Below, piece after piece: positions 1,462 through 47,376 of a stretch of 64,000 nt of DNA. Made by a program: the position numbers and the translations under genes. How positions within the stretch are numbered: position 1 is the stretch's first letter; each line of letters opens with the position of its first letter. The notes beneath the pieces were generated by a model. It did not search any database, had not been told where the DNA came from, and worked only from the letters and a program-made list of their open reading frames with translations. The stretch comes from an uncultured Candidatus Saccharibacteria bacterium (GTDB lineage Bacteria > Patescibacteriota > WWE3 > UBA101185 > UBA10185). The DNA lies in contig CAYLMU010000002.1 of the NCBI GenBank assembly GCA_964385105.1, forward strand, positions 53,672-117,671, written 5' to 3'.

Positions 1462-2724
1462 TTAAATATTTTCGGTTGTCTGTGTTCCTTGTGACATGTC
1501 TTTTATTGTAATTGTATTGTTCTTTAGCTCTTCGTCGCCGATTATAATAACTTTTTCATAACCTCTTTTGTTTGCTGCGCGTAAAGCACTTGTTAATGAT
1601 TGTTCGTTTAAATCAAGTTCAATTTGAAAACCTTTGCTTCTAAGCACATTGGCTACTTTCAATACTTGTAAATATTGAGACTCGTTAAGCAAAGGCATAA
1701 AATACATTTTTTTATATTTGTTGAGGTCGGGGATTAAATTCCAGTTTTCAAGAAATATACGCAAAGTTTCATTACCAGGGGCAAATCCTACAGCAGGAAA
1801 GTTTTGTGCACCAAAAATGTTTGCGAGACCATTATATCTGCCACCTCCAAATAAAGATCTTTTATTCTCCGGGTTTTCATCAAACACTTCAAAAATCATT
1901 CCATCGTAGTAGTCAAAACCTCTAATTATACTGGTTTTGCACTTGGCATTATTGTCATAACCAAGTGTGGTCATTGCATTTTGTAAATATTGAATATCCT
2001 GAAAACCAGCTGTTTCTTTGAGATTACTAATATCGCCGTTTAAAAAGTTTAAAATACTATCTATGGATTGTGCATTTAAACGGTTATCGCTTAATAACCC
2101 CTTAAAATCATCTTTATTCTCGAATTTCTCAAATTTATCCAGTAATCGTGAAATTTTAATTTTTTCATCTTGATCTGTGATGTTTAGGATTTTTTCAAAA
2201 AAGTCATTTAATAGTTTTCGACTGCTGTAGTTTAGCACAAATGAATTGTTTGGGGCATTAAAAGCTTTCATAAGTTCAATTGCTAATGAAAGTACTTCAA
2301 CATCAGCATTTAATGAATCTTCACCAAAAATATCTGCATTTAATTGCCAAAACTCACGGTTACGACCCTTTTGGGGACGTTCATTACGATAAAAGCTTGA
2401 AATGTTAAAAAGTCTAATAGGCTTTTCTTGTTCTTTATAAATACTTGCAACAAGTCTTGTTACAGAGGGTGTCATTTCAGGTCTTAACGCAAGTTCCCTG
2501 TTTGAAAGGTCGGTTAGTGTGAATAGTTCTTTATTGCCCACATCTTCACCTGATTTTGCTTTATAAATTTCGGAAGATTCAAGAAGAGGTGTCTGGTACT
2601 CTTTGTACCCAAACTTAAGGCATACATCTCTCCAAACGCTAAAAATATAATCTAAAGTTAAGTACTCGTTTGGTAAATAGTCTTTGGTTCCTTTATATGG
2701 TTGTGTTGAGATGGTGTTTGCCAT
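1462..2724 (-). CDS. hisS: Histidine--tRNA ligase (class II aaRS)
   Basis: 420-aa ORF; N-terminal YKGTKDYLP, motif-2-like ELALRPEMTPSVTR, motif 3 GGGRYNGL, C-terminal anticodon-binding domain. Confidence 0.9.
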   Translation of the reverse strand: MANTISTQPYKGTKDYLPNEYLTLDYIFSVWRDVCLKFGYKEYQTPLLESSEIYKAKSGEDVGNKELFTLTDLSNRELALRPEMTPSVTRLVASIYKEQEKPIRLFNISSFYRNERPQKGRNREFWQLNADIFGEDSLNADVEVLSLAIELMKAFNAPNNSFVLNYSSRKLLNDFFEKILNITDQDEKIKISRLLDKFEKFENKDDFKGLLSDNRLNAQSIDSILNFLNGDISNLKETAGFQDIQYLQNAMTTLGYDNNAKCKTSIIRGFDYYDGMIFEVFDENPENKRSLFGGGRYNGLANIFGAQNFPAVGFAPGNETLRIFLENWNLIPDLNKYKKMYFMPLLNESQYLQVLKVANVLRSKGFQIELDLNEQSLTSALRAANKRGYEKVIIIGDEELKNNTITIKDMSQGTQTTENI

Positions 2725-2821
2725 GGGTTTATTATAGCTTAAAAACGGGTGATTTTAAGAAATTTACTTTGCAGCCAATTATTTGACAGGGCAAATGTTA
2801 TAGGTTATAATTCTAAATTGT

Positions 2822-3068
2822 AAAGGCTGCACTTTTCCCGAGGAGACCTAGAGAGTCGCTCTCACTAGGTGAGTGAACAGCCAAAAAAGTAACATCCGAG
2901 GGCCTTGCGGGGCATTTTGGAGACGTCCAATTCAGCAAGGTTTAAAAATTCTTGAGCCTGAGGTTTGCGCAAACTTTGGGTTCGGCGGATACTAATGTGG
3001 ATAAAGGTAGATTAGGTGATGTTAGAGCCCCTGCCAAAATCTCCTCCATGTTAGTATCCGTTTTTTTT
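2822..3068 (+). ncRNA. Candidate structured small RNA of unknown class. GC-rich, with multiple nested hairpins, ending in a long stem plus T9
   Basis: GC content is visibly higher than the flanks. Helices include cctagagag/ctctcactagg and ccttgc...gcaagg. A terminal stem cggatactaatgtgg/ccatgttagtatccg is followed by ttttttttt at 3060-3068. The region holds no ORF of 60 aa or more. Confidence 0.3.
2988..3068 (+). terminator. Intrinsic terminator-like element: long imperfect hairpin with G-U pairs, followed by a T9 run
   Basis: ggatactaatgtgg ... ccatgttagtatccg ttttttttt. Confidence 0.4.
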
Positions 3069-3251
3069 TCACATATAACTCACTTTTTAATCAAATAGCA
3101 GCAGTTTTTATAGATATTAAACACACAGTACTTAAAAATATAGGCTTAAATATTTTTGGAGATATTTATATGAACGCCTTGATAAAAGACCTATAGCATT
3201 TTAAAATAACGCCATATTTTTAGTTTCATCAAATGCCAAAAGGAGGGCATT

Positions 3252-4364
3252 GTGAAAAGAGTTTTTGTGGCGGTGGTGTGTGTTGTGCTTTTTCTGTTAG
3301 GCTCAGTGACTCAAGCGGCACAGATTGAGGACTCCTGGGAATGGATTTTGGATGATGAAAGGAGCGAAGTGCGAGAGTTGGAAAACCGCGCGGAGCTTGT
3401 TTTTAATCTTGTTCCTTCGAGTAAAGAAGGATTTCCAAGATTTGAAGCTCAGCGGGAGTTGATGTCGATTAAGAGGAATCTTGAAATTGGTTGTGTTGAG
3501 GTTAATGACCTAACTATGGTTAATTTCGGTGATTCTGCAGCCTTTGTTTTGAGGGCGAGCCAGCAATTTTCAAAGCAGTGTTTGCTCGTCTTGCAAGGCT
3601 TGGGAATTGAAATTGCCGGTGGGTTAGAGTTAACCGCGGAGATCTTGCGGAATCTTGATACCTTTACGCTCGTGGCCACTAATCGGGTGAGCCCGAGGAC
3701 TTACTGGGTTTATTTTAAGGATGAACCAGTGGGCATCTGGCATGGGATTCTCCCTGACAGGCTGAGCGACGGTACCGTGCATGATTGTATCAAGCGCGGC
3801 ATTAGCGCTATTTCTGGGTATACCGGACACACTGGGATTTCTATATTTGAACCCACGCTGAATGCCAATGCAAGATTTGTTCGACGCTATGACATTCAGC
3901 AGCCTGGTGTAAAGGTGCCCAACCTCTGTCAAGATGGAAACTTATCCAGGCAGGATTACTCTCCGAACTGGATTGGTTATTATGACAATGGGAATGGTGC
4001 CCATTTCATCCACTGGATTGCCAGTGGTAATGAAACGCACATCAAAGTGGTGAAGAACAATGCCACATTTGTTGTGTATGAGCGTATTGGTTTTGACCAG
4101 TACGAAGAGATAGCGACACTTTCCGAAGGGTCGCTGGTGAACATTCATCGGTCCGATAGGCTTTTTGTTTTCGTAACAATAAGCAATGGACAACTGGTGT
4201 GGTTACGACCTGCATCATATGATGGATTGTTTTACACTGATATCTCTTCCCTGAGTTTGAGGTCCGATGAGCCGGGCTTGGGGCTGTCTTACGTGTTTAA
4301 TTTTGACGCTCCTCCCTGGTGGTTCGGTCATGGCCCGACTTACCGCCAGCAAATTGTGAACTAA
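3252..4364 (+). CDS. Secreted hypothetical protein with signal peptide MKRVFVAVVCVVLFLLGSVTQAA. The gene is compositionally GC-rich relative to the window
   Basis: GTG start with AAGGAGGG SD 5 nt upstream; 370-aa ORF. The high GC content generates spurious antisense ORFs at 3449-4193. Confidence 0.6.
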   Translation: MKRVFVAVVCVVLFLLGSVTQAAQIEDSWEWILDDERSEVRELENRAELVFNLVPSSKEGFPRFEAQRELMSIKRNLEIGCVEVNDLTMVNFGDSAAFVLRASQQFSKQCLLVLQGLGIEIAGGLELTAEILRNLDTFTLVATNRVSPRTYWVYFKDEPVGIWHGILPDRLSDGTVHDCIKRGISAISGYTGHTGISIFEPTLNANARFVRRYDIQQPGVKVPNLCQDGNLSRQDYSPNWIGYYDNGNGAHFIHWIASGNETHIKVVKNNATFVVYERIGFDQYEEIATLSEGSLVNIHRSDRLFVFVTISNGQLVWLRPASYDGLFYTDISSLSLRSDEPGLGLSYVFNFDAPPWWFGHGPTYRQQIVN

Positions 4365-4776: not shown

Positions 4777-5877
4777 ATGTCACTGGCTCTTGGTATAGTA
4801 GGCCTTCCCAATGTAGGCAAATCAACACTTTTTAATGCGCTTTTAAAGCGTGAGGCAGCGCTTGCAGCAAATTATCCGTTTGCAACAATTGAACCTAATA
4901 TAGGAGTTGTTGATGTGCCCGATAATCGCCTTGAGGTACTTGCCAACCATGTCGAACACGACTACAAGCAATATCCTGAAAAAATAATTCCGGCTACAGT
5001 TAAATTTTATGATATTGCAGGTTTAGTTAAAGGTGCGTCAGAAGGGGAGGGTTTGGGCAACAAGTTTTTAAGTCATATTCGTGAGGTAGATGCTGTAGTA
5101 CATTTAGTTAGGGCATTTACGGATACAAATGTTGTTCGAGAAGGTTCGGTGTCGCCTAAGGATGATATTCAAATAATAAATACAGAGTTAATTCTTGCTG
5201 ATTTGCAAACTTTAGAGTCAAGAATGGAAAAACACCAAAAAAATTTAAAAAGTGATAAAAATGCAGAAAATCTAAAAAAGGCTCAGTTGTATGAAGTTAT
5301 CTATAAAAAATTGAGCGAAGGAAATCTTGCCCTTGAGGCGAATTTGTCAGATGATGAATCACTATTGGTAAAAGACCTTAATCTGCTTACACTAAAACCT
5401 GTACTTTATGTATACAATGTGGATGAGTCTGCTTTAGCTATACCGTTTGAAAATTTGGAAGCTGTTAAAGGATTACCTTATGGAACTATAATCTCAGCCA
5501 AAATTGAGTCAGAATTGAGTTCATTGTCAAAAGATGATCAGGAATTATATATGAAAGATTTGGGTATATCTGAGAGCGGCTTAGACAAGGTAATTAAAAA
5601 AGGGTATGAGTTATTGCAATTACAAACTTTCTTAACTGCTGGGCCTAAAGAAGTACGTGCCTGGACAATAAAAAGAGGTATGAAAGCTCCACAGGCTGCA
5701 GGTGTAATACATACGGATTTTGAAAGAGGATTTATTAAAGCTGAAATTTTATCGTTTGATGACTTAATTAAGGCGCAGGGTTTTAAAAATGCCAAAGAAC
5801 AAGGTCTATTGAGACTAGAAGGTAAAGACTACGTAATGAAAGAAGGAGATATAGTTGAGTTTAAATTTAATGTGTAG
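4777..5877 (+). CDS. ychF: Ribosome-binding ATPase YchF (Obg-like GTPase family)
   Basis: N-terminal LGIVGLPNVGKSTLFNAL P-loop; TGS-like C-terminus DFERGFIKAEI. Confidence 0.9.
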   Translation: MSLALGIVGLPNVGKSTLFNALLKREAALAANYPFATIEPNIGVVDVPDNRLEVLANHVEHDYKQYPEKIIPATVKFYDIAGLVKGASEGEGLGNKFLSHIREVDAVVHLVRAFTDTNVVREGSVSPKDDIQIINTELILADLQTLESRMEKHQKNLKSDKNAENLKKAQLYEVIYKKLSEGNLALEANLSDDESLLVKDLNLLTLKPVLYVYNVDESALAIPFENLEAVKGLPYGTIISAKIESELSSLSKDDQELYMKDLGISESGLDKVIKKGYELLQLQTFLTAGPKEVRAWTIKRGMKAPQAAGVIHTDFERGFIKAEILSFDDLIKAQGFKNAKEQGLLRLEGKDYVMKEGDIVEFKFNV

Positions 5878-5961
5878 AAAGTTTGTTTAATATCTATTCT
5901 AAATAGTGTTGTAGGTATAGACAAATATGGACACTTCTGTATAATAATGATTGCTATGACA

Positions 5962-8934: not shown

Positions 8935-10152
8935 ATGTCACGATTTACGAAATTTCAAATTATACTTGTAACTTTTTTAATAGGCGTAAGCACGTTTTAT
9001 GGCGGCTATTACCTAGGTAAGAGGGGATTTGTTTATGAGGTTAAGAAAAACCCTCCATCAATACAGGTTCATAATCAATATCCAGGTGATCAGGAAATAG
9101 ATTTTGCATTGTTTTGGGAAGTTTGGGATTTAGTCGGAAAGACATATCTTGAAAGGCCGGTTGATGGCCAAAAAATGATGTATGGAGCAATCCAAGGTAT
9201 GGTAGCTGCACTAGAAGACCCATACACTTCATTTTTACCCCCACAATTAAACGAAACGGTTATGAATTCCATAAACGGTACATATTATGGAATAGGCGCA
9301 GAGCTTGATATTAGAGATAATCAATTAATGATTGTTGCACCGCTTGATGGATCTCCGGCTGAAGAAGCAGGTGTACAGGCAGGTGACTTTATTCTAAAAA
9401 TAGAAGATGAATCAACTGCAGGAATCACTTTAACTGAAGCCGTATCAAAAATTCGTGGTGAAATAGGCACAATTAGCACACTTACACTTCAAAGAGTAAA
9501 CTCGGACCCTTTTGTTGTACAAATTAAAAGAGGTGCTATAAATATTGAGGGTGTAACATGGGAAGATAAAGGCGAAGGAACAGTTTATATGCGTATAAGT
9601 ACTTTTGGTGCTGATACAAATGAAGAATGGACAAAGGCAGTAAAAGAAATAAATGCCAAAGTAACAGAACTTGACGCAATAATTTTGGACGTAAGGGGAA
9701 ATCCCGGCGGGTATCTGCAAGCAGCTGTTTATATAGCCGAAGAGTTTTTTAGAGGTGAACCGGTACTTTATCAGGAAACTGCAACAGGTGAGCAAATTGT
9801 TTATGAGGCAAAAAGAACAGGGTCATTTGAGAGTGTACCAAGAGTTATTGTTCTTATAGATGAGGGTAGTGCTTCAGCATCAGAAATTCTTGCTGCAGCA
9901 CTTAAAACAAACAAAGATGCCATATTAGTTGGTGAAAAAAGTTTTGGTAAAGGAACTATACAGGATGCACAGGACTTTGAAGACGGGTCGGGAGTTCATA
10001 TTACAGTTGCAAAGTGGCTAACCCCAAATAAAGAATGGGTACATAAAGCAGGTATAACTCCAGATGAGATTGTTGAGAGAACAATTGAACATTTTAATGA
10101 AGGAGTTGACCCTCAACTTGATAAGGCAATTGAACTTGCCAACGAAATTTAG
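8935..10152 (+). CDS. ctpA: Carboxy-terminal processing protease (S41 family) with PDZ domain and N-terminal membrane anchor
   Basis: PDZ-like GIGAELDIRDNQLMIVAPLDGSPAEEAGVQAGDFILKI; S41 catalytic region VIVLIDEGSASASEILAAALK. Confidence 0.85.
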   Translation: MSRFTKFQIILVTFLIGVSTFYGGYYLGKRGFVYEVKKNPPSIQVHNQYPGDQEIDFALFWEVWDLVGKTYLERPVDGQKMMYGAIQGMVAALEDPYTSFLPPQLNETVMNSINGTYYGIGAELDIRDNQLMIVAPLDGSPAEEAGVQAGDFILKIEDESTAGITLTEAVSKIRGEIGTISTLTLQRVNSDPFVVQIKRGAINIEGVTWEDKGEGTVYMRISTFGADTNEEWTKAVKEINAKVTELDAIILDVRGNPGGYLQAAVYIAEEFFRGEPVLYQETATGEQIVYEAKRTGSFESVPRVIVLIDEGSASASEILAAALKTNKDAILVGEKSFGKGTIQDAQDFEDGSGVHITVAKWLTPNKEWVHKAGITPDEIVERTIEHFNEGVDPQLDKAIELANEI

Positions 10153-28231: not shown

Positions 28232-28239
28232 ATTTTTAT

Positions 28240-29100
28240 TTACATTTAGGCTAGGGAAGAGCGGCGTATCAACAAATAGTCGCTACAGATGTAGAGAAGT
28301 GGAGCAGGAGAGTAGCAGCCTATAGTTTACAGTGCTAAAAGTGGTTAAACTATAGGGTACATTTGTCATACATATTGCGACGCGTTTGTCATAGTTTTTT
28401 AACAATTGCTTTGTTGATACGTGAGAATATGTTAGTACAACAATAAATAATGGCTGTCATATATTTGCATAACATAGGTTGTCATACTTTTTGATGGGGA
28501 GTATAGTTACTGCCTGTGGATAACCTGCGGTTATTATTCAAACATACCGAAGAAGCCTGGGTTCATCTTTGTTCGTGAATTAATTAAATATTAAATTAAA
28601 TAGAGTAATTAATACAAAAAATTGTTGTTAATTTATACAGACACCAAAGCCATTCCCTTTTTTAGTACAGAACTCTAACTTATTGATGTTATAAATCATA
28701 ACGTGTTTAGAAGTCGTTAAACATACATTATACGACGTCAAATATTTTGAGTTTTGTACTTCTCTTTCAAGAGCTTTGTATATAAAAATTAATCTTTTTA
28801 ATGCACACGATTTTTTGTTTTATTTTTTGATAATTTCATTTCTCCACACTTTCTACTTCTCTATTTTTTATTTCTCTTTTACCGCATTCATTTCTTTATA
28901 ATTCCCGCATTTCTTATATTATAAAATTGCATTATACCTCCTATCTTTTGCATATCCTTTTGTTACAGCTAAAAGCACATTCAAGGCCACAGAATGCCCT
29001 AGGAAGCATTTTATTTTATTTGATAACATCTAGTACCTCCAAAATAAATAAATCCACATACATTTTTGCTCGTTTATCATAAAGTGGTAAAATTATACTT
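28240..29100. promoter_or_regulatory. An 870-bp AT-rich gene-free region containing DnaA-box-like 9-mers, four TGTCATA elements, an 11-bp perfect inverted repeat and long AT tracts. I flag it as a candidate replication origin or large regulatory region
   Basis: Perfect TTATCCACA on the minus strand at 28515-28523; TTCTCCACA at 28840-28848; AAATCCACA at 29050-29058. A tract of more than 80% AT at 28580-28660. Inverted repeat cctatagttta/taaactatagg at 28319-28356. No ORF of 60 aa or more on either strand. Confidence 0.35.
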
Positions 29101-29105
29101 ATAGT

Positions 29106-30137
29106 ATGAACCTGTCCATCCAAACACATTTAATAAATTACCTTGAACATTGTGAAATAGAAAAAAATCTTTCTCAAAGCACTATTAAAATGTATCACTT
29201 TTATTTAAGTGATTTTATAGAATGGTTAAAAGAATACTTGGGTCGTGATGATGTTTCTGTTGACGATATAACTTATGAAATCATTAAAAAGTACCGTTTA
29301 AATTTAAATCGAAGAATAAGTTATAAATCAAATGAAGAGCTTAAGAAATCAACTCAAAAAACCTTTTTGGTGGCACTGAGAGCCTTTTTAAAGTATTTAG
29401 TGGTTGAGGAAGATGTAAATGCCATCTCACCGGATAAAATCATCCTAGGAAAGCCTGAGGCCCGCGTACCTAAAGTATTGGATGAAGAGCAGCTTGAGAG
29501 GCTTTTTGCCGTACAAAATTTAAATAAACGTTCTGGAATTCGTGACAGAGCAATTTTAGAAACTTTGTTTAGCACAGGATTACGAGTTTCGGAGCTTGTA
29601 GCACTTAATGTGGCTGATGTTAATTTAAATTCCGGTGAGTTCACTGTTGTTGGTAAAGGAAGAAAAGTTCGTACAGTGTATTTGAGCGATTCTGCACGCG
29701 AATGGATACGTCGTTATATTCAAACCCGACGCGACGAGTTTGCTCCACTTTTTTTAAGATATTCGGGTAAGAAAATGGAGGAGGAAGACGTAGATGGTGA
29801 ATCATTAAGATTGTCTGAAAGAAGTGTTCAACGTATGGTTAAAAAATACGTAACCAGAGCCGGAATCAGTATAGATGCTACTCCCCACACTTTAAGACAT
29901 TCTTTTGCAACAGGTTTGTTACGAGAGGGCGCAGATTTAAGAAGTGTGCAGGAACTTTTAGGTCACAGCAGTGTTTCAACAACTCAAATATATACGCATA
30001 TTACAAGCCATCAGTTACGAGAGACGCATAAAAAGTTTCATAAAGATTTGGATATTTCACAAAATGAAGTTACTAATGAGGTTTCTGTTGATGTTGATTT
30101 AGATTTTGAAAATGGCGAGATAGAGTCTTTATTTTAA
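29106..30137 (+). CDS. xerC: Tyrosine site-specific recombinase, XerC/XerD family
   Basis: N-terminal core-binding domain; RDRAILETLFSTGLRVSEL; catalytic RHSFAT...LGHSS...Y tetrad. Confidence 0.85.
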   Translation: MNLSIQTHLINYLEHCEIEKNLSQSTIKMYHFYLSDFIEWLKEYLGRDDVSVDDITYEIIKKYRLNLNRRISYKSNEELKKSTQKTFLVALRAFLKYLVVEEDVNAISPDKIILGKPEARVPKVLDEEQLERLFAVQNLNKRSGIRDRAILETLFSTGLRVSELVALNVADVNLNSGEFTVVGKGRKVRTVYLSDSAREWIRRYIQTRRDEFAPLFLRYSGKKMEEEDVDGESLRLSERSVQRMVKKYVTRAGISIDATPHTLRHSFATGLLREGADLRSVQELLGHSSVSTTQIYTHITSHQLRETHKKFHKDLDISQNEVTNEVSVDVDLDFENGEIESLF

Positions 30138-35527: not shown

Positions 35528-36466
35528 TTATTGTAATGCCTTTTCGATTGCGGGGGCTATATCTTTTTTGCGGCTCATTTTTGGCCCGATATCTGCCAAA
35601 TTTTCATTAGCTTCTGTGTTAAAGGCTTTTTCCACTATTTTCTCTTCAAGGTCACTTGGATATATCATTTGTGAATTTACTTTAAGAATGTCTGTAACAG
35701 CCAAAAAAGCATATTCTGTTTCAAATTTGGCTTTTAAAGAATTTAAAGCTTGTACAAGTGAGTCTTTTTGTTCAACAATAACTTGCGGCTCAACCGTTTC
35801 TACTTGATTAATAAATACCTTGTGTCCGTTAAATTCAAAAATTTTGTAGTCTTTTGTTGAAATTTCTTCCGGACCTAAACCTGTTATATCTGATTTAGCT
35901 TTAAAGAGTTCAAAAATAAATGTATCAAGTTCAATGTTGAGGTTTTCAGATATTTCATTGGCATACTCTGCGTCATAGCCTGTGGTCGTGCTGGATTTTA
36001 AGCCTTGAGTGTCAGATAGTATGGCTGCCAATGTTATTCCCATTACCCCTTTTGATGGTATAAGGCCTTGGGTTTTAAAGTGTTCATATACTAAGGTACT
36101 TGTTGAACCCAATGGTTTAACATCCACGCGCAATGGAGTAATAAAACTCAAATTTACTCTATGGTGATCCAAGATTTCTAAAATATTCTCACTATTAACA
36201 CTTGGATGTCTTTGAAAGTCTTCGTGGTGATCAGTGAGAATGAACCAGTCATCAGAATTGACTTCAAATTCTTCAATATGTTTGGGCAATGCTACTTCAA
36301 AAGTGTCAAAAACAAACACAGTTTCAGGGTTAGGCTCTCCTGCTCTAACCGGAATTAACTCACTGCCTTCATATCTTTTGTATTTTCTCAAAAATTCGGC
36401 ATAAGCAATTGGAGAAGCTATAGCATCTAAATCCGGTGATGTATGACCGATTATGAATATTCGCAT
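35528..36466 (-). CDS. ppaC: DHH-family manganese-dependent inorganic pyrophosphatase (family II PPase)
   Basis: IIGHTSPDLDAIASPIAYA...DHHE motifs; about 310 aa. Confidence 0.65.
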   Translation of the reverse strand: MRIFIIGHTSPDLDAIASPIAYAEFLRKYKRYEGSELIPVRAGEPNPETVFVFDTFEVALPKHIEEFEVNSDDWFILTDHHEDFQRHPSVNSENILEILDHHRVNLSFITPLRVDVKPLGSTSTLVYEHFKTQGLIPSKGVMGITLAAILSDTQGLKSSTTTGYDAEYANEISENLNIELDTFIFELFKAKSDITGLGPEEISTKDYKIFEFNGHKVFINQVETVEPQVIVEQKDSLVQALNSLKAKFETEYAFLAVTDILKVNSQMIYPSDLEEKIVEKAFNTEANENLADIGPKMSRKKDIAPAIEKALQ

Positions 36467-36985
36467 AGATTATAAGTTTAGCATGTGAGATTTAAAGAAA
36501 AAAGGTAAAAAAAGGCGCAACGGTCATGTCCAGAAATAATTCGACTGTATTACAACTGAGCTTTTGCTCTAGTCACAATCGAAAAAGCCTGTAGGGCTCT
36601 GTTTTTCTAGTCATTACGCAGCGCCAAATCGGAAACGTGGGTGTCAAGTTTGAAAGATGTATATATCAAACAAAAAAAATACCTGACACCCACGTGTTGT
36701 TTTTGCGGGAAGAGGACGTTTGGAAGCTTATTGTCGTCGTGGTGCTTCCGGGAATTTGTGGTTGTCCTCTTCCCTTACCTGCAGATGATGCTTCTAGAAT
36801 TTCTCGCTGATAGTTTGCGAGTGCAATCATCCGCACACAATCGCGATATAGCTTATTGCCGTTTTTGGTCACCCCGGCCTGTTTAAGCAAGGGTCGGCAA
36901 GGCTCCATCGCGAGTAATGTTGGAAAGTATACAAAACTATGGGATACTTGTCAAGTAGTAATCTTAGATATAAGAGCAACATACT

Positions 36986-38974
36986 TTAAGTCATATCAAC
37001 TTCGGCGTCTTTGGCGTGGGTTTGTATAAATCGTTTTCGAGGGGCAACTTCTGAGCCCATTAAGGTGCTAAACACTTCTTCTGAGCGTGACATGTCTTCA
37101 ATTGTGATTTTTTTCAAACGGCGGGTTTCAGGATTCATTGTGGTTTCCCATAATTCCTCGTCATTCATTTCACCCAAACCTTTAAATCTTTGTATAACTG
37201 CCTTTTGCCCGTCTGATGTTTTTAAAAATGCTTTTAGCTCTTTATCATCAAACAAGTATTTTTTGTTTTTACCCCAAGTTGCTTTAAAAAGCGGAGGTGC
37301 AGCTAAATATATGTATCCGTCTTCAATAAGTTCTTTCATGTGACGGTAAAAAAACGTTAAATGTAGAGTTGCAATGTGATTTCCGTCAGAGTCGGCATCT
37401 GCCATGATAATAATTTTGTGGTATCTTAAATTGTCTGCGTCGTAGTGTTCGCCTATTCCTGTACCAAGGGCAAGTATAAGGTTTTTAAATTTTTCCGAAT
37501 CAACTATTTTATCAAGTCTTGCCCGTTCGGTGTTAAGTACTTTACCAAATAACGGTAAAATAGCTTGAGTTTCTCGGTCTCTACCCTGTTTTGCCGAACC
37601 TCCTGCAGAATCCCCTTCTACTATAAAGATTTCTGCTTTTTTAGGATCTTTTTCTGAACAGTCAGCCAATTTTCCGGGTAATACTCCCCCGCCATCCATT
37701 GCGCTTTTTCTAATAACTGTGTCACGTGCCGCCTTTGCAGCCATTCTTGCTTTTAATGCCAATACGTTCTTTTCTATTATGTTTTGTGCCACTTTAGGAT
37801 TTTCTTCAAAAAATGTAGCTAATGAGTCACGCGTAATATTCTCGACTGCTGTTCTAACTATTGAATTACCTAGTTTTCCTTTTGTTTGGCCTTCAAACTG
37901 TAGTTTGTCGGCATCAAGTTTTACTGAAATAACAGCAGTTAAACCTTCTTTTAAATCATCACCGGATAAATTGGGCATATTGTCTTTAATTAAATTATTG
38001 TTTCGGGCATAATCGTTAACAACTTTTGTTAAGGCGGTTCTGAAACCTGTTAAGTGTGTTCCACCTTCATTTGTTTTGATGTGGTTTGCAAAAGTTAATA
38101 TATTTTCTGCAAATGAGTCATTGTACTGAAAAGCTATTTCTACGTTTACATTGTCGTGTTCTTTGTTTATATAAAAAATCTGGTCGTGAACAGGTTTTTT
38201 GTTTCGATTTAATGATTTGATGTAAGATTTTATTCCACCATCAAAATAGAAAAAATAAGTTTCATTAGCGCGATTATCTACAATCTCAAATTTTATGTTT
38301 GCCGTCAAATAGGCATATTCTCTAAGCTGTGCTATAAAAAAGTTTAATTTAAAATCGGTTGTTTCAAAAATTGTACCGTCTGGCTTAAAGTGAATAATAG
38401 AACCTGATTCAGCATTCCAGGAATCAAAATTTAAATTAAGCTTTGCATTTTTTATTTTAGTTTTTAAATCACCGGGTTTGAACTTTTCAACAGGGCGAAG
38501 TACTTTTCCTCCGTTTTCATATTCTTGAATGACCCACTCATCCCCTCTTTTAACAATTACTCTTAGCCAGTCAGACAGTGCGTTCACAACAGATGCTCCA
38601 ACACCATGTAAACCGCTTGATACCTTATAACCAGAATCATCACCGCCAAATTTTCCTCCGGCATGAAGCTTTGTAAATGCAAGTTCAAGTGCTGATACGT
38701 TGTAACCTTGTTTTAATTCATATGGAATACCTCGGCCGTTGTCATAAACTGCAACAGAACCGTCGTCAAAAAATTCAACCTTAATGGTGTTTGCATAACC
38801 GGCAATGGCCTCATCCATTGAGTTATTAACAATTTCCGTAACCAAATGATGAAGTCCGGCCTGGCTGGTTGAGCCAATATACATTCCGGGGCGTTTTCTA
38901 ACGGGTTCAAGACCTTCTAAAACCTGTATCTGATCTGCGCCGTAATTACTCTTTTTGTTAGTGTCTTTTGCCAT
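36986..38974 (-). CDS. gyrB: DNA gyrase subunit B
   Basis: GLHHLVTEIVNNSMDEA ATPase lid; EGDSAGGSAKQGRDR Toprim; C-terminal tail. Confidence 0.9.
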   Translation of the reverse strand: MAKDTNKKSNYGADQIQVLEGLEPVRKRPGMYIGSTSQAGLHHLVTEIVNNSMDEAIAGYANTIKVEFFDDGSVAVYDNGRGIPYELKQGYNVSALELAFTKLHAGGKFGGDDSGYKVSSGLHGVGASVVNALSDWLRVIVKRGDEWVIQEYENGGKVLRPVEKFKPGDLKTKIKNAKLNLNFDSWNAESGSIIHFKPDGTIFETTDFKLNFFIAQLREYAYLTANIKFEIVDNRANETYFFYFDGGIKSYIKSLNRNKKPVHDQIFYINKEHDNVNVEIAFQYNDSFAENILTFANHIKTNEGGTHLTGFRTALTKVVNDYARNNNLIKDNMPNLSGDDLKEGLTAVISVKLDADKLQFEGQTKGKLGNSIVRTAVENITRDSLATFFEENPKVAQNIIEKNVLALKARMAAKAARDTVIRKSAMDGGGVLPGKLADCSEKDPKKAEIFIVEGDSAGGSAKQGRDRETQAILPLFGKVLNTERARLDKIVDSEKFKNLILALGTGIGEHYDADNLRYHKIIIMADADSDGNHIATLHLTFFYRHMKELIEDGYIYLAAPPLFKATWGKNKKYLFDDKELKAFLKTSDGQKAVIQRFKGLGEMNDEELWETTMNPETRRLKKITIEDMSRSEEVFSTLMGSEVAPRKRFIQTHAKDAEVDMT

Positions 38975-46712: not shown

Positions 46713-46741
46713 TTGACATGTAAAAAAATCATTGTCATAAT
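46713..46741 (+). promoter_or_regulatory. Candidate promoter (TTGACA, 17 nt, CATAAT with an upstream TGT) that would give a leaderless or very short-leader mRNA for the 46750 gene
   Basis: cattgacatgtaaaaaaatcattgtcataatttattgtaATG. Confidence 0.35.
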
Positions 46742-46749
46742 TTATTGTA

Positions 46750-47376
46750 ATGTCCAATTATAGCCCCGAAATAAATTTGAATCTTAGTGAAAGTAGACGT
46801 GGGAATAGAAATTTGATCCTTGTTTCACTCCTAATAATTTTTGTTTTTGCTGTCACTTTATTGCTAATTTATACATATTATTTAAATTCAACAACTGAAA
46901 ATCAGGCCAAAGAAGACTCAGATATGTTGTTAAATACAGTTCCGCAGGATAGCTATAATGTAGTGTTTCCCAATGTTTCCTATTCAATTGATGCTGATGG
47001 AATGTGGAGACTAAAAGTATTTCAACCTATACTTAAAGAATTCGTATCTGAAAACGGGAATAATTATTTAGTGGTGGAATATGATGAAGGCAGTACAAAA
47101 GTTTCAAAAAGAGTGTTTGTAACGTCTAATAATACGGAATATTTGGATAGGATATCATTTAAAGAAGGTGATAACTTAAAACTTGTAACATTCGATGAAT
47201 TAAAGCAATTATTAAATACTGAAGGGCGGATTAGTATAAGTTATTTTGAAACAACCCCCACTATTGAATCGCTTACGGATGATTTTTGTTCCAATTTAGT
47301 TAGAAGATGCGCTTTAGCACGTTTGGATGTGGAGTATAAAAGCTATTTCATATCAAGTGAGGTTATAGAGCAATAA
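46750..47376 (+). CDS. Hypothetical N-terminally membrane-anchored protein (208 aa)
   Basis: TM helix LILVSLLIIFVFAVTLLLIYTYY; its stop overlaps the start of the next gene. Confidence 0.5.
   Translation: MSNYSPEINLNLSESRRGNRNLILVSLLIIFVFAVTLLLIYTYYLNSTTENQAKEDSDMLLNTVPQDSYNVVFPNVSYSIDADGMWRLKVFQPILKEFVSENGNNYLVVEYDEGSTKVSKRVFVTSNNTEYLDRISFKEGDNLKLVTFDELKQLLNTEGRISISYFETTPTIESLTDDFCSNLVRRCALARLDVEYKSYFISSEVIEQ

What the first reader, a model, noticed from the sequence alone, without database searches (positions are those of the whole stretch)
2822..3068. GC-rich, highly structured about 250-nt element ending in a stem plus T9: unclassified sRNA candidate
The segment stands out in GC content and holds no ORF. 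It folds into several helices (cctagagag/ctctcactagg, ccttgc/gcaagg, and a long terminal stem followed by nine T). It lies between hisS (minus strand) and a GC-rich secreted-protein gene (plus strand). I could not match RNase P (no AGGAAAGUCCGGGC), tmRNA (no UUCGAC 5' end, no tag ORF), SRP RNA or a T-box (no GGGTGG box on the hisS leader strand).
Basis: seen in the sequence. Interest (0 to 1): 0.5.

Follow-up and report, generated by a model that had tools for sequence, protein, structure and literature searches.

The report
Orphan small RNA gene beside hisS
A roughly 250-base stretch next to the hisS gene of an uncultured Patescibacteria (CPR) bacterium looks like a self-contained small non-coding RNA gene, but no relative was found, so its function cannot be tested by comparison.

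Summary
Window ~2818-3069 (+) is an ORF-free unit. It starts at the only perfect sigma-70 consensus promoter in the 64 kb (TTGACA-17-TATAAT, 2783-2811). It has four helical domains and ends in a 16-bp-stem hairpin followed by T9. The + strand folds at -86 kcal/mol (z = -3.7); the - strand does not (z = -0.9). Seventeen of the 83 predicted pairs are G-U, which points to an RNA read from the + strand. It matches no Rfam 15 family and carries no RNase P, tmRNA, SRP or T-box signature.

The host is a Patescibacteria (CPR) bacterium. In the nearest relative (hisS 74% identical) the hisS-ychF neighbourhood is conserved, but the RNA and the gene downstream of it are replaced by unrelated small ORFs. 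No homolog turned up in any collection searched, so covariation could not be tested. The downstream 370-aa secreted-looking protein is a compositionally foreign ORFan.

Best reading: a lineage-specific, stand-alone small RNA acting in trans. The main rival is a terminator-based leader for the ORFan, suggested by a 7-bp alternative helix that competes with the terminator base. A second orphan RNA of the same layout lies between gyrB and a DHH gene. This is an ordinary kind of object with modest interest.

The parts
2783..2811 (+). Sigma-70-type promoter of the RNA: TTGACA, 17-nt spacer, TATAAT. Predicted transcription start about 2817-2820.
   Evidence: 12 of 12 consensus matches. It is the only 12/12 site on either strand of the 64-kb window.
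2818..3069 (+). Predicted RNA1 transcript, about 250 nt, non-coding.
   Evidence: The + strand folds at -86.2 kcal/mol with z = -3.7, against z = -0.9 for the - strand. No Rfam family matches. No credible ORF exists.
2825..2882 (+). Domain H1, a three-way junction. The outer stems are GGCUG/CAGCC and CACUU/GAGUG. It carries a small hairpin UUCC-CGA-GGAG and the hairpin ACCUAG.AGA...UCU.CUAGGU.
   Evidence: Present in both the minimum-free-energy and centroid folds. The inner inverted repeat is reported (I6).
2883..2899 (+). Single-stranded A-rich linker AAAAAAGUAACAUCCGA, the most accessible segment. Bases 2888-2897 can alternatively pair with 2986-2992.
   Evidence: Unpaired probability is above 0.8 across the segment. 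The alternative helix appears in folds of 3'-truncated transcripts.
2900..2943 (+). Domain H2: lower stem GGCCUUGC/GCAAGGUU, internal loops, and apical stem UUGGA-GACG-UCCAA.
2953..2984 (+). Domain H3: a 14-bp hairpin rich in G-U pairs, around GAGCCUGAGGUUUG/CAAACUUUGGGUUC, with a 4-nt loop.
   Evidence: and 71 (I5). The G-U pairs make this helix specific to the + strand.
2985..3069 (+). Domain H4, the intrinsic terminator: a 16-bp basal stem (2986-3001 / 3045-3060), a structured 43-nt interior with a C-rich segment GAGCCCCUGCC and UCUCCUCC, then T9 (3061-3069).
   Evidence: Inverted repeat reported (I22; I2). Hairpin free energy is -30.1 kcal/mol. T9 is the longest + strand T run in the window. 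The automatic terminator scan missed it only because its loop limit is 8 nt.
2731..2758 (-). Divergent promoter-like site of hisS (TTAAAA-16-TATAAT). Its -10 element ends 6 nt before the hisS ATG. This is context, not part of the RNA.
   Evidence: Sequence. The same arrangement occurs in relative L019.
3070..3251 (+). AT-rich spacer (GC 0.275) between the terminator and the downstream ORF. It holds a promoter-like site, TTGATA-17-TAAAAT (3179-3207), 45 nt before the GTG start.
   Evidence: Sequence.
3252..4364 (+). Downstream 370-aa ORFan with a signal-peptide-like N-terminus and foreign composition. It is a possible cis target if the RNA is a leader.
   Evidence: No Pfam, PHROGs or PADLOC family matches. 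The only full-length match in 5.8 billion proteins is itself. Exhaustive HMMER found one weak repeat match to a leucine-rich-repeat protein. GC3 is 0.49, against 0.27 +/- 0.04 for 60 ORFs of the window.

Best explanation
RNA1 is a stand-alone, lineage-specific small non-coding RNA gene of a Patescibacteria (CPR) bacterium.

Proposed working: RNA polymerase starts at about 2818 from a perfect sigma-70 promoter that diverges from the hisS promoter. It transcribes about 250 nt, which fold into four helical domains (H1 to H4). It stops at the H4 hairpin plus U9 intrinsic terminator, releasing a discrete, stable RNA.

What the sequence shows: the promoter and terminator signals, the strand-specific fold, the lack of coding capacity, and non-membership of any Rfam family.

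What is inferred: that the RNA is expressed and stable, and that it acts in trans. The most likely mode is base pairing through its exposed segments. These are the 17-nt A-rich linker 2883-2899 and the C-rich interior of H4. Protein binding is the alternative. It lies in a variable gap between hisS and ychF, next to a horizontally acquired ORFan. This fits the usual picture of young, fast-turnover bacterial sRNAs in accessory intergenic DNA.

The confidence of 0.45 applies to 'independent trans-acting sRNA'. My confidence that this is a genuine transcription unit producing a structured RNA of some function is higher, about 0.7.
For: - The promoter matches 12/12 and is unique in the 64 kb.
- The terminator has a 16-bp stem, -30 kcal/mol and U9.
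- The + strand fold has z = -3.7 (0 of 200 shuffles), against z = -0.9 for the - strand. The centroid is close to the minimum-free-energy fold. 17 of 83 pairs are G-U.
- No credible ORF exists under code 11 or 4/25.
- GC is 0.48 against 0.36 for the genome, the same direction as the tRNAs at 0.55-0.57.
- Arguments for independence from the downstream gene: a 182-nt AT-rich spacer follows the terminator; a 10/12 promoter-like site lies 45 nt upstream of the ORFan start; and the terminator is far stronger and more elaborate than typical conditional terminators (established knowledge of riboswitch expression platforms).
- A second unit with the same layout (RNA2, about 36919-36672 on the - strand, z = -5.4) shows that such units recur in this genome.
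Against: - No homolog was found, so there is no covariation or conservation support of any kind.
- The syntenic gap of the nearest relative lacks the element.
- No expression data are available.
- No complementary target above chance exists within the 64 kb. The two ychF complementarity blocks (I8 and I16) are at chance level and not colinear.
- The anti-Shine-Dalgarno-like UCUCCUCC is paired in the predicted fold.
- A 7-bp all-Watson-Crick alternative helix (2888-2897 with 2986-2992) competes with the terminator base. This is what a cis-acting switch would show.
- Whether this lineage has sRNA chaperones is unknown.
Confidence: 0.45

Rival explanations
1. RNA1 is a cis-acting 5' leader (a riboswitch-like or protein-dependent transcription attenuator) for the downstream ORFan. 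During transcription a P1-like helix forms between G2888-U-A[ACA]U-C-C-G2897 and C2986-G-G-A-U-A-C2992. This helix closes a three-way junction that contains H2 and H3. If a ligand or protein stabilises it, the 7 basal pairs of the terminator cannot form, and polymerase reads through into 3252-4364 (an ON switch). Otherwise the 16-bp terminator wins.
For: - Folds of transcripts truncated at 3005 and at 3044 adopt this helix, with a gain of about 5 kcal/mol.
- All 7 pairs are Watson-Crick and sit exactly at the H2/H3 junction and the terminator base. My rough estimate of the chance probability, 0.003-0.05, is a post hoc inference.
- The RNA has the same orientation as the ORFan and lies directly upstream of it.
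- Both are absent together from the nearest relative.
Against: - 182 nt of AT-rich spacer separate the terminator from the start codon, and the spacer has its own 10/12 promoter-like site.
- The terminator (-30 kcal/mol) is about six times more stable than the competing helix.
- H1 has no role in this model.
- No known riboswitch or T-box family matches.
- The ORFan's composition (GC3 0.49) differs from the AT-rich spacer, which suggests separate histories.
- No homologs exist to test whether the alternative pairing is conserved.
Confidence: 0.25
2. RNA1 is a non-functional or decaying remnant. It would be a piece of horizontally acquired DNA, for example the end of a mobile element, phage or degraded gene. 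On this reading it happens to carry promoter-like and terminator-like signals and a stable fold, with no selected RNA function.
For: - It lies in a gap whose content differs in every relative examined.
- It is adjacent to a compositionally foreign ORFan.
- It has no homologs in any collection searched.
- It is absent from a relative with 74% hisS identity.
Against: - The combination is unlikely without selection: a unique 12/12 promoter, a 250-nt strand-specific fold rich in G-U pairs (z = -3.7) and a U9 terminator, in the right order and spacing, in a small streamlined genome.
- No flanking repeats, integrase, transposase or tRNA target site lie nearby.
- No residual reading frame exists.
Confidence: 0.15
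3. RNA1 is a highly divergent housekeeping RNA (RNase P RNA, 6S RNA, SRP RNA or tmRNA) that the Rfam models fail to recognise in this CPR lineage.
For: - CPR lineages are divergent, and 6S RNA in particular is hard to detect by sequence (general knowledge).
- The size, about 250 nt, is in the range of these RNAs.
Against: - No Rfam hit appears even at E<=10 on a 261-nt search space. ARAGORN finds nothing.
- No CR-I/CR-V, SRP helix-8, tmRNA-end or T-arm motifs are present with mismatches allowed.
- The fold is four consecutive hairpins with no 5'/3' closing helix, which all four of these families have.
- A housekeeping RNA would be conserved, yet the nearest relatives show no similar sequence in 31 loci by nhmmer and covariance-model search.
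Confidence: 0.03

Closest known systems
Lineage-specific bacterial trans-acting sRNAs with their own promoter and a Rho-independent terminator (for example the staphylococcal Rsa RNAs or enterobacterial core and accessory sRNAs)
   Same: - It is an autonomous unit in an intergenic region.
- It has a consensus promoter, several stem-loops and a terminal hairpin plus U tract.
- It has no ORF.
- It has C-rich and A-rich exposed segments.
- Its phylogenetic distribution is narrow, and it lies in variable DNA.
   Different: - At about 250 nt it is at the long end of the range.
- No seed-target pair was found.
- No chaperone is known for the host lineage.
- No expression data or homologs are available, so membership of any named sRNA family is excluded.
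Transcription-terminating ON riboswitches built on a three-way junction (for example the pbuE/ydhL adenine riboswitch)
   Same: - A helix closes a junction of two hairpins (H2 and H3).
- The 3' strand of that helix is also the 5' base of an intrinsic terminator, so the two structures are mutually exclusive.
- The element lies upstream of a gene on the same strand.
   Different: - No match to any riboswitch family.
- The competing helix is weak and interrupted.
- The terminator is unusually long.
- An extra 5' domain (H1) is present.
- 182 nt lie between the terminator and the start codon.
- The downstream gene is an ORFan, so no ligand logic can be proposed.
Group II intron domain V
   Same: H3 begins with GAGCC and ends with GGUUC. 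It is a hairpin of about 30 nt followed directly by another hairpin.
   Different: - It lacks the 2-nt bulge and the GNRA loop.
- No domain I-IV or VI features are present, and no intron-encoded protein.
- The total length is about 250 nt.
- Rfam Intron_gpII and group-II-D1D4 give no hit at E<=10.
The resemblance is superficial.

Membership tests
Bacterial RNase P RNA (Rfam RNaseP_bact_a/b) | Conserved regions CR-I (GAGGAAAGUCC) and CR-V (ACAGAAxxCGGCUUA) forming P4, with a 5'/3' P1 closing helix | tested here: not met
   No Rfam hit at E<=10. No CR-I or CR-V match with up to 4 mismatches on either strand. The fold has no 5'/3' closing helix.
tmRNA | tRNA-like acceptor and T-arm formed by the 5' and 3' ends, plus a tag reading frame | tested here: not met
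   ARAGORN finds nothing in 2500-3400. No T-arm or 5' motif is present. No Rfam hit.
SRP RNA (4.5S / large bacterial SRP) | Helix 8 with a GNRA loop and conserved symmetric and asymmetric loops (GGAAGCAGCC-type motif), within a long hairpin closed by the 5' and 3' ends | tested here: not met
   No motif with up to 2-3 mismatches. No Rfam hit. The H2 apical loop is GACG, not GNRA.
6S RNA | A single long irregular hairpin with a large central bubble and a closing stem formed by the 5' and 3' ends | tested here: not met
   The predicted structure is four consecutive independent domains. The 3' end is taken up by a terminator hairpin. No Rfam 6S hit. RNA polymerase binding is not testable here.
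T-box leader | The T-box sequence (AAUxxGGGUGGxACCGCG) in an antiterminator, a Stem I specifier loop, and a downstream aminoacyl-tRNA synthetase or amino-acid gene | tested here: not met
   No T-box motif with up to 3 mismatches on either strand. No Rfam hit. hisS is on the opposite strand and appears leaderless. The gene downstream on the + strand is an ORFan.
Known riboswitch classes (Rfam) | A match to a curated aptamer covariance model | tested here: not met
   None at gathering threshold or at E<=10.
Terminator-based cis-regulatory leader (generic mechanism, not a family) | Mutually exclusive terminator and antiterminator structures upstream of the regulated gene | tested here: inconclusive
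   A 7-bp Watson-Crick alternative helix overlapping the terminator base exists. It is weak (about -5 against -30 kcal/mol). Its conservation cannot be tested. A long spacer with a promoter-like site lies before the gene.
Stand-alone bacterial sRNA gene (generic kind) | Own promoter, intrinsic terminator, no ORF, in an intergenic location | tested here: met
Stand-alone bacterial sRNA gene (generic kind) | A discrete expressed transcript and a trans target or protein partner | not testable with these tools
   No transcriptome data are available. No complementarity above chance was found within the 64 kb.
Conserved structured RNA family (any) | Homologs in other genomes with covarying base pairs | tested here: not met
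   No homolog was found in 31 held loci by nhmmer or covariance model R1. None was found in the phage or plasmid collections, viral contigs or metagenome contigs. Sensitivity was limited, because the collection scans use exact patterns.
Type I toxin mRNA / small-protein gene | A short hydrophobic ORF with a ribosome-binding site inside a structured RNA of about 200-300 nt | tested here: not met
   Only 35-48-codon frames without usable Shine-Dalgarno spacing are present, and none is hydrophobic.
Diversity-generating retroelement template repeat, type III antitoxin repeats, TIGR or CRISPR-like arrays, MITE | A second diverged copy (VR), tandem repeats, or terminal inverted repeats with other copies in the genome | tested here: not met
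   No second copy exists in the 64 kb. No tandem repeats. The only flanking inverted repeat is weak, 14 nt at 79%. No reverse transcriptase, Cas or Tas gene lies nearby.

The most novel reading that the evidence does not exclude
RNA1, and the similarly built RNA2 between gyrB and the DHH gene, could be the first sighted members of a new class of self-contained structured-RNA cassettes. On this reading they insert between housekeeping genes of CPR bacteria. They might be ligand- or protein-responsive attenuators that bring a new promoter and switch to the gene downstream. They might instead be novel functional RNAs tied to the episymbiotic lifestyle. Their relatives would have been missed here only because exact-pattern scans cannot find diverged RNA homologs.
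Probability: 0.1. Interest if true: 0.6.

Novelty: new member of a known kind. Interest (0 to 1): 0.3.

Why it matters
Almost nothing is known about RNA-based regulation in Patescibacteria (CPR), whose roughly 1-Mb genomes have little non-coding DNA. A strongly promoted, well-folded 250-nt RNA would therefore be a useful entry point for transcriptomic work, and a second one of the same layout lies 34 kb away. Both are absent from relatives with 74-88% protein identity. This would show that even these streamlined genomes gain and lose sRNA genes quickly. If the leader model is right, RNA1 would be an unclassified switch controlling a horizontally acquired secreted protein. As it stands, it is a single-genome prediction without conservation or expression support.

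Tried and rejected
- **Rfam 15:** I scanned the whole window at gathering threshold, then 651-nt and 261-nt sub-windows at E<=10. This returned only two tRNAs elsewhere and chance eukaryotic hits.
- **tmRNA:** ARAGORN found nothing.
- **Housekeeping motifs:** scans for RNase P, tmRNA, SRP and T-box motifs with mismatches found none.
- **Syntenic homologs:**
  - A hisS-based scan of GTDB genomes gave 17 loci.
  - The hisS protein search plus contig look-ups covered relatives down from 74% identity.
  - nhmmer, blastn and a covariance model built from the single sequence found nothing but the same contig from Logan.
- **Positional check:** I tested whether the 364-368-aa genes and the 320-nt gaps next to pyrG in L020 and L021 are positional equivalents. 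The proteins are unrelated and the gaps are AT-rich.
- **Downstream ORFan as a handle:** it has no homolog except itself, plus one weak leucine-rich-repeat-like match. It matches no Pfam, PHROGs or PADLOC family. The single-sequence AlphaFold model was unusable at pLDDT 37.
- **DNA searches:**
  - Phage and plasmid blastn found nothing relevant.
  - Six viral-contig pattern scans found nothing.
  - Of two metagenome scans, the first found nothing. The second found 4 chance matches inside coding DNA.
- **Repeats:** no DGR template/variable repeat pair, tandem repeats, MITE-like ends or second copy in the window.
- **Target prediction:** RNAduplex against translation-initiation regions was uninformative because long duplexes with large loops dominated. 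Complements of the two accessible segments occur at chance frequency.
- **RNA1 versus RNA2:** they share no sequence similarity.
- **Group II intron domain V:** the resemblance of H3 was rejected (no bulge, no GNRA loop, no Rfam hit).
- **Literature:** no paper in the held library describes CPR sRNAs or RNase P variants of this kind.

Full report
**What is there**

The sequence at 2780-3070 holds a complete transcription unit on the + strand.
- TTGACA (2783-2788), a 17-nt spacer and TATAAT (2806-2811) match the sigma-70 consensus at 12 of 12 positions.
- A scan of both strands of the whole window found no other 12/12 site and six 11/12 sites.
- From a start at about 2817-2820 the sequence runs about 250 nt to a T9 tract at 3061-3069. 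This is the only T run of 9 or more on the + strand of the window.
- The tract follows a hairpin whose basal stem is 16 bp (2986-3001 / 3045-3060). The whole hairpin has a free energy of -30.1 kcal/mol.
- The automatic terminator scan missed this hairpin only because it allows loops of at most 8 nt.

**Fold**

The + strand folds at -86.2 kcal/mol, against -69.0 +/- 4.6 for dinucleotide shuffles. That gives z = -3.7, and none of 200 shuffles folds as well. The centroid is almost identical to the minimum-free-energy structure. The reverse complement has z = -0.9.

The structure has four domains:

| Domain | Coordinates | Description |
|---|---|---|
| Linker | 2883-2899 | 17-nt unpaired, A-rich |
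| H2 | 2900-2943 | Lower stem CCUUGC/GCAAGG |
| H3 | 2953-2984 | 14 bp, rich in G-U pairs |
| H4 | 2985-3061 | Terminator hairpin |

Of 83 pairs, 17 are G-U. These become A-C mismatches on the other strand, which explains the strand asymmetry and argues for selection at the RNA level on the + strand. GC is 0.48, against 0.36 for the window and 0.275 for the next 182 nt. There is no credible ORF under code 11 or code 4/25.

**What it is not**
- Rfam 15 gives nothing for this region at gathering thresholds. At E<=10 on 651-nt and 261-nt search spaces it gives only chance eukaryotic hits: snoRNA, miRNA and lncRNA.
- ARAGORN finds no tmRNA.
- RNase P CR-I/CR-V, tmRNA-end, SRP helix-8 and T-box motifs are absent even with several mismatches allowed.
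- The architecture is four hairpins in series, with the 3' end inside a terminator. It lacks the 5'/3' closing helix common to RNase P, SRP, 6S and tmRNA.
- There are no tandem repeats and no second, diverged copy in the window that could indicate a DGR template.
- No reverse transcriptase, Cas or transposase neighbour is present.
- H3 superficially recalls group II intron domain V (GAGCC...GGUUC). It lacks the bulge, the GNRA loop and everything else such an intron has.

**Genomic context**
- The upstream gene on the - strand is hisS (Pfam).
- hisS relatives place the organism in Patescibacteria (CPR). The best genome hit is 58% identical, a Patescibacteria single-cell genome, followed by WWE3 and Dojkabacteria.
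- The hisS promoter-like site (2758-2731) has its -10 element ending 6 nt before the ATG, with no Shine-Dalgarno sequence. The same is seen in the closest relative. hisS is therefore probably leaderless, and the two promoters are back to back.
- Downstream on the + strand, after 182 AT-rich nt holding a 10/12 promoter-like site (3179-3207), lies a 370-aa ORF with a signal-peptide-like N-terminus.
  - This ORF has no Pfam, PHROGs or PADLOC family.
  - It has no homolog but itself among 5.8 billion proteins.
  - Exhaustive HMMER found only a weak repeat match to a leucine-rich-repeat protein.
  - Its GC3 is 0.49, against 0.27 +/- 0.04 for 60 ORFs of the window. It is a compositionally foreign ORFan.

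**Comparative evidence**
- The closest hisS relative (74% identity, locus L019) keeps the neighbourhood: hisS, the 658-aa gene, ychF, S6, SSB and S18.
- In that relative, only two unrelated small ORFs lie between hisS and ychF, and just 135 nt separate hisS from the first of them.
- More distant relatives carry other genes there, such as pyrG and a PIN toxin. The gap is a variable island.
- nhmmer, blastn and a covariance model built from the RNA1 sequence plus its predicted structure (R1) found nothing in 31 loci (about 0.5 Mb) or elsewhere in the window. The only match was the identical Logan contig of the same organism.
- blastn against phages and plasmids found nothing relevant.
- Six exact-pattern scans of viral contigs found nothing.
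- Of two metagenome scans, one found nothing and the other found four chance matches inside coding DNA.
What can be said is that the element is not conserved at its locus in the nearest sampled relative.
Absence of homologs is not proven.

**How it most likely works**

The signals support a discrete RNA of about 250 nt that terminates efficiently. I favour a stand-alone, lineage-specific sRNA acting in trans (confidence 0.45), for three reasons:
- The terminator is very strong and elaborate.
- A long AT-rich spacer with its own promoter-like site separates it from the ORFan.
- Young sRNAs typically sit in variable intergenic DNA.

The exposed segments are the linker AAAAAAGUAACAUCCGA and the C-rich interior of H4. 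Neither has a complement above chance in the 64 kb, so the target is unknown.

The main rival (0.25) is a cis-acting attenuator. In folds of transcripts that lack the 3' arm of the terminator, bases 2888-2897 pair with 2986-2992. This gives 7 Watson-Crick pairs with a 3-nt bulge, for about -5 kcal/mol. The helix closes a three-way junction around H2 and H3 and sequesters the 5' base of the terminator. That is the layout of ON riboswitches such as pbuE. Here, however, the helix is weak, its conservation cannot be tested, and the gene is far downstream.

A non-functional remnant of acquired DNA (0.15) is hard to reconcile with the joint occurrence of a unique consensus promoter, a G-U-rich strand-specific fold and a U9 terminator. 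A divergent housekeeping RNA is very unlikely (0.03).

**A second unit**

Between gyrB (36986-38974, - strand) and a DHH/DHHA2 gene (35528-36466, - strand) lies a unit with the same layout on the - strand.
- Its promoter is TTGACA-17-TATACT (36954-36926, 11/12 matches).
- About 245 nt at GC 0.50 follow, folding at -87.4 kcal/mol (z = -5.4) and ending in T8. About 200 nt of AT-rich spacer then precede the next gene.
- It has no Rfam match and no similarity to RNA1.
- In relatives with 88% and 76% gyrB identity, the gyrB-DHH gap is only 70 and 20 nt.
- This genome therefore carries at least two private structured-RNA units inserted between conserved genes.

**Verdict**

RNA1 is a well-formed but orphan small-RNA gene. 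It belongs to a known kind (a lineage-specific bacterial sRNA or leader) and to no known family. Without homologs or expression data its function stays open. Interest is modest (0.3). It would rise if a full Infernal search or transcriptomics showed a family or a switch.

Noticed in passing
window 36672-36954, minus strand (between gyrB 36986-38974 and the DHH/DHHA2 gene 35528-36466): A second orphan structured-RNA candidate (RNA2) has the same layout as the finding. Its promoter is TTGACA-17-TATACT (11/12 matches). About 245 nt at GC 0.50 follow, folding at -87.4 kcal/mol (z = -5.4) and ending in T8, then about 200 nt of AT-rich spacer. It has no Rfam match and no similarity to RNA1. It is absent from relatives with 88% and 76% gyrB identity, where the gyrB-DHH gap is only 70 and 20 nt.
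   Followed up: partly
window 2722-2758, minus strand; L019 about 9975-10003: hisS appears to be leaderless. A TATAAT -10 element ends 6 nt before the ATG, and there is no Shine-Dalgarno sequence. The same TATAAT-N6-ATG arrangement occurs in the closest relative. Similar -10-to-ATG spacings occur at 46736-46752 and possibly before rpsF at 5940-5958.
   Followed up: partly
window 3252-4364, plus strand: This 370-aa ORF has a signal-peptide-like N-terminus and GC3 of 0.49, about 5.6 sd above the window mean of 0.27. It has no homolog in 5.8 billion proteins except itself, plus a weak match of residues 149-194 to repeats of a 2901-aa leucine-rich-repeat protein. It is likely a recent horizontal acquisition in the variable hisS-ychF gap. 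The single-sequence AlphaFold model was unusable.
   Followed up: partly
window 28232-29105 (874-nt gap upstream of a tyrosine recombinase gene at 29106-30137): This large AT-rich intergenic region has a perfect DnaA-box-like TGTGGATAA at 28516-28524. It carries four TTGTCATA repeats between 28354 and 28487, and a locally stable fold at 28632-28781 on the + strand (z = -4.5). It could be a replication-origin-like or recombination-related region. The cumulative GC skew shows no clear minimum here.
   Followed up: no
window 2928-2968 versus 5188-5225 (inside ychF): Two adjacent blocks of RNA1 (18 nt at 83% and 21 nt at 81%) are complementary to adjacent blocks of the ychF coding strand. They are in non-colinear order, and their individual E-values are at chance level.
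   Followed up: yes
window 3158-3197, plus strand: A tiny 8-codon ORF (MNALIKDL) has a GGAG 8 nt upstream of its start. It lies in the spacer between the RNA1 terminator and the ORFan and overlaps the promoter-like site at 3179-3207. It was seen by eye in the sequence and not evaluated further.
   Followed up: no
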